Below are positions 3,968 through 63,856 of a stretch of 64,000 nt of DNA, piece by piece. The notes below the pieces were generated by a model. It was given only the letters and a program-made list of their open reading frames with translations. It searched no databases and was not told the origin of the DNA. Both the position numbers and the translations under genes were made by a program. Source of the DNA: Octopus vulgaris (Eukaryota); assembly GCA_951406725.2 (NCBI GenBank), contig OX597824.1, forward strand, positions 68,076,001 to 68,140,000. Reading direction: 5' to 3'. Every line of letters starts with the position of its first letter. Within the stretch, counting starts at the first letter, position 1.

Positions 3968-26920
<22,953 letters not shown>

Positions 26921-27362: not shown

Positions 27363-27427
<65 letters not shown>

Positions 27428-27428
<1 letters not shown>

Positions 27429-27891
27429 AAAAAATAAGACAACAAAGCCAAAGCTGTGTGGAATTTTCAGGACATTTATAAAGAGAAAGTTAGTCTTACA
27501 GCTGTTTCAGGGATATTAGGGATATCCCTTCATCAGAGACGATGTGAGATGGTTAAATAGAGGAAAAATTAGAGTTCAATATAGGGAGTTATTTTGGAAA
27601 AGAAAGTAAATAAGGAGTATACAGGGAAATAGGAGAATGAATACACAAATAAAAATGTATAAAGATGTTATAATTGCAGTTCCATTATCTGAGGAAAGTG
27701 GTAGAAATGCTTCTTAGTGGTATGTAAATTCCAATGGAAGTTCATATTTTATCATCACAAATGAAAAGTGTGGAGACGTAGATTCCATGTGCTGTACATT
27801 CAAATGGATCTTGTGGTGTGAATGAAAATATAAGAATGTAGTGGTAGAGAGGGGAGAAGAGATGTGTATGTTAAAATGAAGTGAGAGGTCA
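27428..27891 (-). mobile_element. Penelope-like terminal (pLTR-like) repeat with hammerhead; inverted partner at 29951-30450
   Basis: Colinear reverse-complement similarity with 29951-30450; contains the hammerhead motif. Confidence 0.7.
27493..27540 (-). ncRNA. Minimal type I hammerhead ribozyme
   Basis: Minus strand: gucu CUGAUGA agggauau-cccua-auaucccu GAAAC agcu GUA^ agac; perfect stems I and II, palindromic loop III. Confidence 0.88.
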
Positions 27892-27930: not shown

Positions 27931-28012
<82 letters not shown>

Positions 28013-28195
28013 AAAGGGCTTAGTAAAATAAATTACTTCGCCGCATACTGAACTCATTAGAAATAGCAGCCCAAAAACTTTTTTAAAGCTATTTCTAATA
28101 CTTAAAGAAAATCTCTCTCATATATAGCGTTTGCCTAATTCAACTCACAAAAGTTTGGGGGTAAGGACATTAAAAAATCAAATGCTAAGGTTATT

Positions 28196-28247
28196 TGAGT
28201 ACGTACGTTTCAAGATTAGTCAAAACAACACTTCTATCTTCAGCTCA
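28196..28247 (-). ncRNA. Minimal type I hammerhead ribozyme, unit 1
   Basis: Minus strand: ugag CUGAAGA uagaagu...acuaaucuu GAAAC guac GUA^ cuca; stem I perfect, stem II irregular. Confidence 0.75.
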
Positions 28248-28741
28248 GAAATTCCTTGGTTTGGATTTGGAAACACTGAAAGTAAGAACATACCCTTTCG
28301 AAGATTCGCTCGTTACTAACAGTGCCAACAAACCCAAAATAAGCAAGTGAAGAATTTCTGTCCTCCCCTTTCCACCAGCGTGGGTTAAAATCATCAAACG
28401 CTATGCTTATTTCGGTAAAATCCGAAGCATTAATTAGAGGGAGATTAATTATAATTTCAACAATTGAGGGTAAAATTAATTAATTATTAATCAATTTCAC
28501 CAAGTGTTCAGTATGCAAAGGGACCATTTAAGGCGAATTCAAATTATTACATTATATAAAAGGGCTTAGTAAAATAAATTACTTCGCCGCATACTGAACT
28601 CATTAGAAATAGCAGCCAAAAAACTTTTTTAAAGCTATTTCTAATACTTAAAGAAAATCTCTCTCATATATAGCGTTTGCCTAATTCAACTCACAAAAGT
28701 TTGGGGGTAAGGACATTAAAAAATCAAATGCTAGGGTTATT

Positions 28742-28793
28742 TGAGTACGTACGTTTCAAGATTAGTCAAAACAACACTTCTATCTTCAGCTCA
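28742..28793 (-). ncRNA. Minimal type I hammerhead ribozyme, unit 2
   Basis: Identical to unit 1. Confidence 0.75.
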
Positions 28794-29286
28794 GAAATTC
28801 CTTGGTTTGGATTTGGAAACACTGAAAGTAAGAACATACCCTTTCGAAGATTCGCTCGTTACTAACAGTGCCAACAAACCCAAAATAAGCAAGTGAAGAA
28901 TTTCTGTCCTCCCCTTTCCACCAGCGTGGGTTAAAATCATCAAACGCTATGCTTATTTCGGTAAAATCCGAAGCATTAATTAGAGGGAGATTAATTATAA
29001 TTTCAACAATTGAGGGTAAAATTAATTAATTATTAATCAATTTCACCAAGTGTTCAGTATGCAAAGGGACCATTTAAGGCGAATTCAAATTATTACATTA
29101 TATAAAAGGGCTTAGTAAAATAAATTACTTCGCCGCATACTGAACTCATTAGAAATAGCAGCCAAAAAACTTTTTTAAAGCTATTTCTAATACTTAAAGA
29201 AAATCTCTCTCATATATAGCGTTTGCCTAATTCAACTCACAAAAGTTTGGGGGTAAGGACATTAAAAAATCAAATGCTAGGTTATT

Positions 29287-29338
29287 TGAGTACGTACGTT
29301 TCAAGATTAGTCAAAACAACACTTCTATCTTCAGCTCA
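29287..29338 (-). ncRNA. Minimal type I hammerhead ribozyme, unit 3
   Basis: Identical to unit 1. Confidence 0.75.
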
Positions 29339-29722
29339 GAAATTCCTTGGTTTGGATTTGGAAACACTGAAAGTAAGAACATACCCTTTCGAAGATTCGC
29401 TCGTTACTAACAGTGCCAACAAACCCAAAATAAGCAAGTGAAGAATTTCTGTCCTCCCCTTTCCACCAGCGTGGGTTAAAATCATCAAACGCTATGCTTA
29501 TTTCGGTAAAATCCGAAGCATTAATTAGAGGGAGATTAATTATAATTTCAACAATTGAGGGTAAAATTAATTAATTATTAATCAATTTCACCAAGTGTTC
29601 AGTATGCAAAGGGACCATTTAAGGCGAATTCAAATTATTACATTATATAAAAGGTCCCTTTGCATACTGAACACTTGGTGAAATTGATTAATAATTAATT
29701 AATTTTACCCTCAATTGTTGAA

Positions 29723-29753
<31 letters not shown>

Positions 29754-29809: not shown

Positions 29810-30450
29810 AAACAATTAAAATAAGATTAGATAGTTAATAAATTTTATGGAAAGTCAAATAGGGTTGTTGGGGGTTACCTAAGTGATGTTCGGGATATGT
29901 GCTGTGTGGTTATTTAGCTTTCATTTAGATTTGTGGTAAAATTTTCCTTTTGACCCCTCGCTTCATTTTAACATACACATCTCTTCTCCCCTCTCTATAT
30001 ACTTAATACTACCACTACGTTCTCAAATTTCCGTTCACACCACAAGACACCTCTGAATGAACAGCACATGGAATCTACATCTCCACACTTTCCATTTGTG
30101 ATGACAAAACATGAACTCCTATTGGAATTTACATACCACGGACAGGAAGCATTTCTACCACTTCTACATACCACATTCTTTGGATAATGAAACTGCAACT
30201 ATAAAATGTTTATACATTATTATTCTCTTATTCTCTTATTCTCTTATTCCCCTAAATACACATTAGCTTCTTTTCCAAAATAACTCCTCATATTGAACTC
30301 TAATATTTTCCTCTATTTAACCATCTCACATCATCTCTGATGAAGGGATATTACAAATATCCCAGAAACAGCTGTAAGACTAACTTTCTCTTCATACATG
30401 TCCTGAAAATTCCACACAGCCTTGGCTTTTTTGTTTCATTGTTTTAAAAA
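29810..30450 (+). mobile_element. Penelope-like terminal repeat with hammerhead (inverted partner of 27428-27891)
   Basis: Colinear similarity from 29951; hammerhead motif. Confidence 0.7.
30333..30380 (+). ncRNA. Minimal type I hammerhead ribozyme
   Basis: aucu CUGAUGA agggauauu-aca-aauauccca GAAAC agcu GUA^ agac. Confidence 0.8.

Positions 30451-42216: not shown

Positions 42217-63856
<21,640 letters not shown>

What the first reader, a model, noticed from the sequence alone, without database searches (positions are those of the whole stretch)
28037..28537. The 546-nt monomer is extensively self-complementary, like a viroid-type RNA
Nested complementary pairs within one unit: ttcgcc 28037-42 / ggcgaa 28532-37; gcatactgaac 28043-53 / gttcagtatgc 28506-16; attagaaatagc 28056-67 / gctatttctaat 28088-99; atagcgtttg 28124-33 / caaacgctat 28395-404. 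There is also a long hairpin agaaattc...cactg...agtaa / ttact...cagtg...gaatttct at 28247-28359 and atgctt..ttcgg / ccgaagcat at 28403-28430. Together these give a branched, closed fold around the hammerhead, suggesting selection on RNA structure rather than on plain satellite DNA.
Basis: partly seen in the sequence, partly recalled or inferred. Interest (0 to 1): 0.7.

Follow-up and report, generated by a model that had tools for sequence, protein, structure and literature searches.

The report
Folded hammerhead retrozyme, Penelope-style insertion
This 546-base repeat unit pairs with itself far more than chance gives and related copies keep the pairing through matched changes on both sides; it carries a predicted self-cutting RNA motif and is likely a "retrozyme", a known kind of non-coding jumping element that would be copied from a circular RNA by a Penelope-type enzyme, not a viroid.

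Summary
The self-complementarity is real. All listed pairs are exact. The unit folds at z -5.6 (+) and -7.5 (-). The conserved fold belongs to the minus strand, which carries a type I hammerhead (28243-28200). Against a 76%-identical subfamily, 12 of 139 pairs change compensatorily (null 4.2, p=2e-4), and G-U wobbles favour the minus strand. One listed pair (ttcgcc/ggcgaa) is probably a register artefact. The unit is one of thousands of dispersed genomic copies, so it is not a viroid. Insertions sit in (TA)n; 51 of 57 inverted ones have one arm starting at fixed site A and the other at site B, about 100 nt away, and none has A+A or B+B. Both arms share locus-private variants and run through the cleavage site. 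Active Penelope-like elements here show the same geometry. Verdict: new member of the non-LTR retrozymes, whose self-paired circles are already described. The scan noted this kind of element before, in this and other genomes. Cleavage, circular RNA and the partner enzyme are untested.

The parts
27979..28005 (.). left (TA)n target tract
28006..28551 (-). retrozyme unit 1 (546 nt); its left edge is start site A of the insertion
28552..29097 (-). unit 2 (2 substitutions from unit 1)
29098..29642 (-). unit 3 (545 nt; one substitution and a 1-nt deletion from unit 1)
29643..29654 (-). first 12 nt of a fourth unit; overlaps the inverted arm in a short microhomology (TAAAAGG against TAAATGG)
29648..29724 (+). 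inverted 77-nt arm (reverse complement of 28454-28530); its outer edge is start site B
29723..29753 (.). right (TA)n target tract
28196..28247 (-). type I hammerhead: stem I UGAG/CUCA, core CUGAAGA 28243-28237, stem II with U.U at its base, GAAA 28211-28208, short palindromic stem III, GUA triplet 28202-28200, predicted cut between 28200 and 28199; repeated with cores starting at 28789 and 29334
   Evidence: cleavage not tested
28043..28053 (-). helix P1, one strand (partner 28506-28516); 100% of cells paired, one compensatory change in subfamily F1c and a further U-A to C-G change in sister family F2
28506..28516 (-). helix P1, partner strand
28055..28100 (-). hairpin attagaaatagc/gctatttctaat; 98% of cells paired, 2 pairs changed on both sides
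   Evidence: helix 15
28124..28154 (-). long interrupted helix with 28374-28404; 96% of cells paired, 4 pairs changed on both sides
   Evidence: helix 8
28264..28338 (-). long hairpin; 88.5% of cells paired, 4 of 32 pairs changed on both sides; F1b and F1c carry a 17-nt insertion at its tip
   Evidence: helix 12
28450..28458 (-). site B sequence inside unit 1 (A+T-rich, about 100 nt from site A across the unit junction)

Best explanation
The 546-nt unit is a self-pairing, non-coding repeat with a hammerhead motif on the minus strand, and is likely a non-LTR retrozyme whose fold is kept by selection on its RNA stage. Shown: fold stability, compensatory change, strand bias, hammerhead motif conservation, dispersal, (TA)n targets, two fixed outer ends in inverted arms, shared variants between the arms. 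Inferred: tandem copies are transcribed on the minus strand, the hammerheads cut out monomers, a host ligase closes them into circles, and a Penelope-like RT-endonuclease nicks both strands of a (TA)n tract and starts cDNA at site A from one DNA end and at site B from the other, on one RNA molecule or on sister molecules of one source. Each cDNA runs round the unit for a variable length and the two are joined by short microhomology, giving tandem-plus-inverted arrays such as this one (3 units + 77 nt). The fold probably protects the circle and presents sites A and B beside helix P1 to the enzyme (least supported step).
For: Fold: z -7.1 minus, -4.2 plus (circular); the three other subfamily/family representatives give -7.6, -5.2, -3.3 on minus. 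Covariation: pairs predicted from the window unit alone against F1c (76% identical): 12 of 139 compensatory, null 4.2, p=2e-4; 9 of 94 at pair probability >0.9, null 2.5; 16 of 150 pairs change on both sides in 9 copies, slid controls 0-4. Polarity: single changes keep the pair in 17 of 36 on minus, 4 of 28 on plus, Fisher p=0.007. Variants shared between loci or fixed in a locus keep pairs in 42 of 72, single-unit variants in 16 of 57, p=7e-4. Hammerhead core pattern in 63 of 65, 29 of 33 and 29 of 31 full F1 units with the N7 position varying A/U/C; it forms without moving any of 463 outside positions, at a cost of 4.3 kcal/mol. 4546 exact matches of a P1 motif, 0 for the control. Of 84 F1 elements with both ends in view 57 are inverted, 51 of these A+B, 0 A+A or B+B; 68 of 84 have a TA tract on both sides. 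Arms of one locus differ by 0.36%, units of one arm by 0.21%, different loci by 2.08% (F1a). 89 of 114 arms cross the predicted cut site, 32 of 114 at least twice; 4 of 114 end within 5 nt of it. Two Penelope-like families with open ORFs (717 aa; 775 aa with RVT_1 and GIY-YIG) target (TA)n; 11 of 11 inverted loci picked for the 775-aa family have one short and one tailed end. Two internal RT start sites that bound the 'tail' are shown in vitro for a Penelope-like element (PMC11167929, parts 1-2 of 4 read).
Against: No cleavage, circular RNA, strand or level of RNA was observed. Rfam finds no hammerhead (0 at gathering score, none among 21 matches to E=10); stem II has U.U at its base in 43 of 63 F1a units, and in Xenopus only 1 of 9 predicted retrozyme dimers cleaved in vitro (bioRxiv 10.64898/2026.07.22.740005). 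24 of 139 predicted pairs are broken in F1c, paired positions do not change less often than unpaired ones (70 of 278 against 57 of 250), and the closer subfamily F1b gives weak signal (2 against 0.7, p=0.14; 4 against 1.4, p=0.04). The contrast is partly confounded: transmitted variants are richer in transitions (100 of 149 against 63 of 150), and single-unit variants include sequencing errors. No sequence homology to either Penelope-like family was found (best E 0.5), so the partner is unnamed; of 3 loci of the 717-aa family with both ends in view one is short+short. Read-through of the cut site fits an uncleaved multimer as well as a circle, and PMC11167929 found unprocessed RNA the dominant substrate in vitro. 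Loci were chosen by likeness to full units, which favours long young insertions.
Confidence: 0.8

Rival explanations
1. Same element and enzyme, but the template is a long uncleaved multimeric transcript rather than a circle; the hammerhead is weak or idle, and the fold serves only RT recognition and RNA stability.
For: U.U at the base of stem II and a 4.3 kcal/mol cost of the active fold in the window unit; arms cross the cut site freely; hammerhead activity was dispensable for insertion in vitro in a Penelope-like element (PMC11167929).
Against: The core is conserved across subfamilies down to 76% identity with change confined to N7 and the stems; arrays of 12 or more units exist while most loci seen hold 1-3; the axolotl hammerhead with the same U.U cleaves well as a dimer and yields circles (PMC7229834).
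Confidence: 0.12
2. A viroid-like replicon: the circle also copies itself RNA-to-RNA and is only occasionally captured into the genome.
For: Branched rod-like fold with covariation; 2% difference between loci but 0.2-0.4% within them shows a varied template pool; RNA-RNA replication is raised as a possibility for mussel retrozymes (PMC7229834).
Against: Hammerhead in one polarity only; thousands of dispersed genomic copies can supply the variety; integration footprints are stereotyped and routine; 0 pattern matches in viral and metagenome contigs (exact pattern, close relatives only).
Confidence: 0.05
3. A DNA-level fold-back or satellite element whose self-complementarity reflects single-stranded DNA hairpins, chance or past inverted duplications.
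For: Inverted arms and tandem arrays; the plus strand also folds well (z -4.2 to -5.6) and shows the same Watson-Crick double changes (10 of 129).
Against: G-U-type single changes are tolerated on the hammerhead strand only; the two ends are different fixed sites, not terminal inverted repeats, and the B arm holds sequence that a short A arm lacks (e.g. L070, L075), so it is no fold-back copy of it.
Confidence: 0.03

Closest known systems
Metazoan non-LTR retrozymes (Cervera and de la Pena 2020, PMC7229834; parts 2-4 of 6 read, supplement not readable; Li, Clavereau and Pollet, bioRxiv 10.64898/2026.07.22.740005; parts 1-3 of 5 read, supplements closed)
   Same: Non-coding tandem units with one type I hammerhead each, GC below 50%, predicted highly self-paired circle that leaves the hammerhead free, U.U at the base of stem II as in axolotl HHR_Amex2, co-occurrence with Penelope-like elements.
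   Different: 546-580 nt against about 170-400 nt in the 2020 paper (but inside the 51-972 bp range of the 2026 preprint); (TA)n targeting, inverted arms and two fixed ends are not described in the parts read; no homology to a Penelope pLTR was found here; circles and cleavage not shown here.
Penelope-like elements: insertion architecture (Craig et al. 2021, PMC8557442, passages and section 11 read; Frangieh et al. 2024, PMC11167929, parts 1-2 of 4 read)
   Same: Partial tandems with an inverted copy, (TA)n target bias, a 'tail' at one end only, explained in vitro by two internal RT start sites and nicking of both strands.
   Different: No ORF; the offset between the two starts is about 100 nt (about 125 nt in F2) against 30-40 bp; the unit is copied round several times.
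Hammerhead viroids (Avsunviroidae) and viroid-like satellite RNAs (features recalled, not from a call)
   Same: Small, non-coding, branched self-paired RNA with a hammerhead and compensatory change.
   Different: Chromosomal DNA phase with thousands of copies, ribozyme in one polarity only, retrotransposition footprints, no evidence for RNA-to-RNA replication or infectivity.

Membership tests
non-LTR retrozyme | tandem repeat units with a type I hammerhead in each unit | tested here: met
   three cores at 28243, 28789, 29334 on minus; pattern in 121 of 129 full F1 units; Rfam models did not score it
non-LTR retrozyme | no protein coding, no LTR structure | tested here: met
   longest ATG frame in the window unit 49 aa, no tblastn similarity to the two PLE proteins (best E 0.29); array made of units only. 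PBS and PPT were not searched
non-LTR retrozyme | dispersed multi-copy family | tested here: met
   200 listed-or-counted matches at the top 40 of 1384 candidates; 4546 motif matches
non-LTR retrozyme | stable self-paired monomer fold that leaves the hammerhead able to form | tested here: met
non-LTR retrozyme | self-cleavage of the transcript | not testable with these tools
   needs in vitro transcription
non-LTR retrozyme | accumulates as circular RNA | tested here: inconclusive
   only assembled contigs of runs not on record as RNA were available; read-through of the cut site in 89 of 114 arms is indirect
non-LTR retrozyme | homology to the pLTR of an autonomous Penelope-like element | tested here: inconclusive
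   none to the two families examined; other PLE families of the genome were not enumerated
Penelope-like insertion product | partial tandem plus inverted copy | tested here: met
   57 of 84 F1 elements inverted
Penelope-like insertion product | two fixed ends, the extension at one end only | tested here: met
   51 of 57 A+B, 0 A+A or B+B; F2 15 of 27 A+B, 2 A+A
Penelope-like insertion product | A+T-rich or microsatellite target | tested here: met
   TA tract within 30 nt on both sides in 68 of 84
autonomous Penelope-like element | RT plus GIY-YIG ORF | tested here: not met
hammerhead viroid | ribozymes in both polarities (recalled) | tested here: not met
   core found on minus only; no ribozyme family on plus
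hammerhead viroid | no DNA phase (recalled) | tested here: not met
hammerhead viroid | autonomous RNA-to-RNA replication and infectivity (recalled) | not testable with these tools
   needs strand-specific RNA and transmission tests

The most novel reading that the evidence does not exclude
The fold is a docking device: helix P1 with its flanking hairpins, conserved between families only about 51% identical, holds two A+T-rich start sites about 100 nt apart so that a dimeric Penelope RT primes both nicked target strands on one and the same RNA circle, always one at A and one at B, and copies it by rolling-circle reverse transcription. The unit would then be a minimal natural substrate that explains the tandem/inverted/tail signature of all Penelope-like insertions.
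Probability: 0.4. Interest if true: 0.65.

Novelty: new member of a known kind. Interest (0 to 1): 0.4.

Why it matters
Retrozyme circles were called highly self-paired from single-sequence predictions; here subfamilies of one genome give comparative support for the fold and show its strand. The footprints (one A end plus one B end, same template for both arms, read-through of the cut site) tie a retrozyme to Penelope-type enzymes by mechanism rather than by co-occurrence and give a small, protein-free template for testing how Penelope-like elements make tandem and inverted insertions, a cycle that PMC8557442 calls still undefined. The class, the self-paired fold and the proposed Penelope link are already in print, and this scan has noted such elements several times, which limits the surprise.

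Tried and rejected
Rfam: no family at gathering score in the window; the E-value scan gave only generic hairpin matches to the inverted tail and microsatellites. Idea that the two arms are joined at helices of the fold: rejected, 2 of 57 junctions lie within 6 nt of a predicted pair, null 1.0, p=0.28; 28 of 57 show 1-5 nt overlap, 5 are blunt, 17 have a gap (BLAST ends, approximate). Classical twin priming on a linear RNA with one arm stopping at the other's start: not seen, inner ends are scattered. Linear cleaved monomer as template: disfavoured. ADAR footprint: no significant A>G excess on the RNA strand among shared (21 against 16 T>C), locus-fixed (10 against 9) or single-unit (6 against 16) variants; only the unclassified set leaned that way (11 against 3, p=0.01). 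Autonomous partner: the ten other loci with a similar hammerhead stem III, the 30 loci of the sister-family search and two PLE families showed no RT gene joined to these ends. Expression: no RNA holder listed; 15 runs guessed to be RNA hold 30-72% of the words; four runs were laid, contigs only, which show presence in runs labelled as four other organisms but no strand, end or level; a comparison with a silent stretch was not obtained, so expression stays open. Viral and metagenome contigs: 0 matches each. The 717-aa PLE protein matched no Pfam family and no solved structure; its Hydra-clade label rests on the RWK, DKT, CxCX5C, CxxC and CxH motifs of PMC8557442 section 11 read. Literature: seven searches listed no paper on a cephalopod retrozyme, on covariation in animal retrozymes or on their inverted two-ended insertions; most subscription papers and the supplements of PMC7229834 and of the preprint could not be seen and may hold such data. 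Earlier findings by sequence: none.

Full report
Observation. The window holds three head-to-tail copies of a 546-nt unit (28006-29642), 12 nt of a fourth, and a 77-nt inverted copy of 28454-28530 at 29648-29724, between two (TA)n tracts. The copies differ at 1-2 positions. The unit folds at z -5.62 on the plus strand and -7.53 on the minus strand, with 0 of 100 shuffles as stable, and at -4.2 and -7.1 as a circle (30 shuffles). Of 11 control stretches (from 61 without simple repeats) 10 gave z between -1.9 and +1.0; one gave -4.4/-3.3 with 14 shuffles and -1.34 on refolding with 100.

Hammerhead and strand. A type I hammerhead core lies on the minus strand of every unit (28243, 28789, 29334) and none on the plus strand of the array: stem I UGAG/CUCA, CUGAAGA, stem II with U.U at its base, GAAA, a short palindromic stem III, GUA at 28202-28200. 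Rfam does not score it. The pattern is present in 63 of 65, 29 of 33 and 29 of 31 full units of three subfamilies and 7 of 15 older units of a sister family; N7 varies (A, U, C). Forcing the active fold costs 4.3 kcal/mol in the window unit and 0.3 in subfamily F1c and changes no partner outside the motif (463 of 463 and 467 of 467 positions); the two other reference copies did not match the pattern and were not tested. PMC7229834 (parts 2-4 of 6 read) reports the same U.U in an axolotl hammerhead that cleaves weakly alone and well as a dimer.

Family. The genome is 2.8 Gb in 227 contigs; 'octopus-like' is my inference from size and recall. The unit has 1384 candidate places, and the full-length matches among the 40 scored are 97-100% identical. 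A 21-nt P1 motif occurs 4546 times, its control 0 times. Searches gave subfamilies F1b (89-92% identical), F1c (76%) and a sister family F2 (about 580 nt, about 51% identical overall, 62-71% around the ends). Contigs of runs labelled as four other organisms hold the unit, two of them with the paired changes 28128 C>T and 28400 G>A (same change as in F1b, so not independent).

Is the fold under selection? Pairs predicted from the window unit alone (circular, probability >0.5) were read in other copies. Against F1c_L148: 86 unchanged, 12 compensatory, 17 kept by one change, 24 broken, of 139; null for compensatory 4.2, p=2e-4; at probability >0.9, 9 of 94 against 2.5; the reverse direction gives 16 of 151 against 3.9. 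F1b gives 2 of 145 (p=0.14) and 4 of 148 (p=0.04). Paired positions do not change less often than unpaired ones (70 of 278 against 57 of 250). On 9 copies, 16 of 150 pairs change on both sides, against 0-4 when partners are slid (the tool warns that a structure taken from one row exceeds slid versions partly for that reason); RNAalifold finds 18 of 142. Single changes keep the pair in 17 of 36 cases on the minus strand and 4 of 28 on the plus strand (p=0.007), which marks the hammerhead strand as the folded molecule. Within subfamilies, variants shared between loci or fixed within a locus keep pairs in 42 of 72 cases, single-unit variants in 16 of 57 (p=7e-4), with the caveat that the first class is richer in transitions. 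Helix by helix: 28043-53/28506-16 100% paired; 28056-67/28088-99 98%; the helix starting 28124-33/28395-404 96%; the long hairpin 88.5%; 28403-28430 56-83%. F2 keeps P1 with a U-A to C-G change and keeps the neighbouring hairpins (read by eye).

How copies are made. Of 84 distinct F1 elements with both ends in view (dropped: under 80 nt, within 150 nt of a locus edge, N in a flank; loci chosen by likeness to full units; a few may be segmental duplicates), 57 are inverted; 51 have one outer end at site A (unit junction) and the other at site B (about 100 nt away), none has A+A or B+B; 68 have a TA tract on both sides. In F2, 15 of 27 inverted elements are A+B and 2 are A+A. In both arms the plus strand reads inward from the flank, as cDNA primed on minus-strand RNA would. 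The window copy is A on the left, B on the right. Units of one arm differ by 0.21%, opposite arms by 0.36%, different loci by 2.08% (F1a); F1b 0.48/0.90/4.09; F1c 1.13/1.56/2.93; rare arm-fixed variants are shared by the other arm in 12 of 14, 64 of 68 and 4 of 5 cases, so both arms come from one template or one source. 89 of 114 arms cross the predicted cut site, 32 twice or more, and 4 end near it: the template was a circle or an uncleaved multimer. Junctions show short overlaps and no link to the helices.

Enzyme. Two Penelope-like families with open ORFs are abundant: one of 717 aa with the Hydra motifs of PMC8557442 section 11 (80 of 80 scored matches 96-100% identical) and one of 775 aa with RVT_1 and GIY-YIG domains (Neptune-like by its CX4CxxC linker, my reading). 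Both sit in (TA)n with a short and a tailed end; 11 of 11 inverted loci that I picked for the second have one of each, 2 of 3 for the first. PMC8557442 (passages) describes tandem/inverted insertions with a 30-40 bp tail at one end; PMC11167929 (parts 1-2 of 4) shows that the tail is the interval between two internal RT starts, that both strands are nicked and extended, and that hammerhead cleavage is not needed in vitro. No sequence homology links either family to the retrozyme ends, so the partner is not identified.

Comparison and novelty. The element meets the sequence-level definition of a metazoan non-LTR retrozyme (PMC7229834; bioRxiv 10.64898/2026.07.22.740005, parts 1-3 of 5 read), whose circles are described as highly self-paired and proposed to be mobilised by Penelope-like elements. 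It fails the viroid tests that can be made. Seven literature searches listed no paper on a cephalopod retrozyme or on this two-ended architecture in retrozymes; unread supplements may bear on that. Eight earlier notes of this scan describe such elements in this and other genomes, several with the two fixed ends; I recorded my reading before seeing them and count them as leads, not support.

Verdict. Observation confirmed, interpretation partly supported; new member of a known kind; interest 0.4. Cleavage, circular RNA, expression and the partner enzyme remain untested.

Noticed in passing
window 27426-27847 and 30009-30447: An older inverted pair (88-92% complementary arms) flanks the array; each arm carries its own canonical-looking type I hammerhead (cores at 27536 minus and 30337 plus). 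Probably another Penelope-type two-armed insertion into whose middle the retrozyme landed.
   Followed up: partly
window 26744-26920: 59-codon frame ending in a stop that looks like the last exon of an SLC22/MFS transporter (recalled; no Pfam match), about 1.1 kb upstream of the array.
   Followed up: partly
L283:5361-6722 (minus); G000 C1:27838500-27848400: The 775-aa Penelope-like family has a 4271-nt unit with a second, 454-aa open frame upstream of the RT frame with no Pfam match, and no canonical hammerhead by my pattern; many copies are identical over the query, so it looks very young.
   Followed up: partly
L238 and L233-L262: The Hydra-like 717-aa family has a 2589-nt period and only a degenerate hammerhead-like motif (CAGAUAA...GAAAC) in its 3' region, although canonical hammerheads are reported as universal in that clade.
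   Followed up: no
L101-L142, L203-L232: Sister retrozyme family F2 (about 580 nt), older, same A/B architecture with about 125-nt offset; many copies are tiny A+B palindromes of 170-350 nt lacking the hammerhead.
   Followed up: partly
L082:5034-5590 and L090:3658-4915: Other tandem units (periods about 252 and 627 nt) next to hammerheads with the same stem III; possibly further retrozyme families.
   Followed up: no
L284 right end, L262, L073, L131: Retrozyme and Penelope-like insertions are nested in each other's TA tracts, consistent with a shared target.
   Followed up: no
window 21358-21723: Two tandem copies of a 183-nt unit (88% alike), a common dispersed repeat by the look of related loci.
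   Followed up: no
window 46411-46956: Control stretch with several strong local hairpins; low z in one test (-4.4) but not in a better-sampled one (-1.34); no repeats of 20 nt or more.
   Followed up: yes
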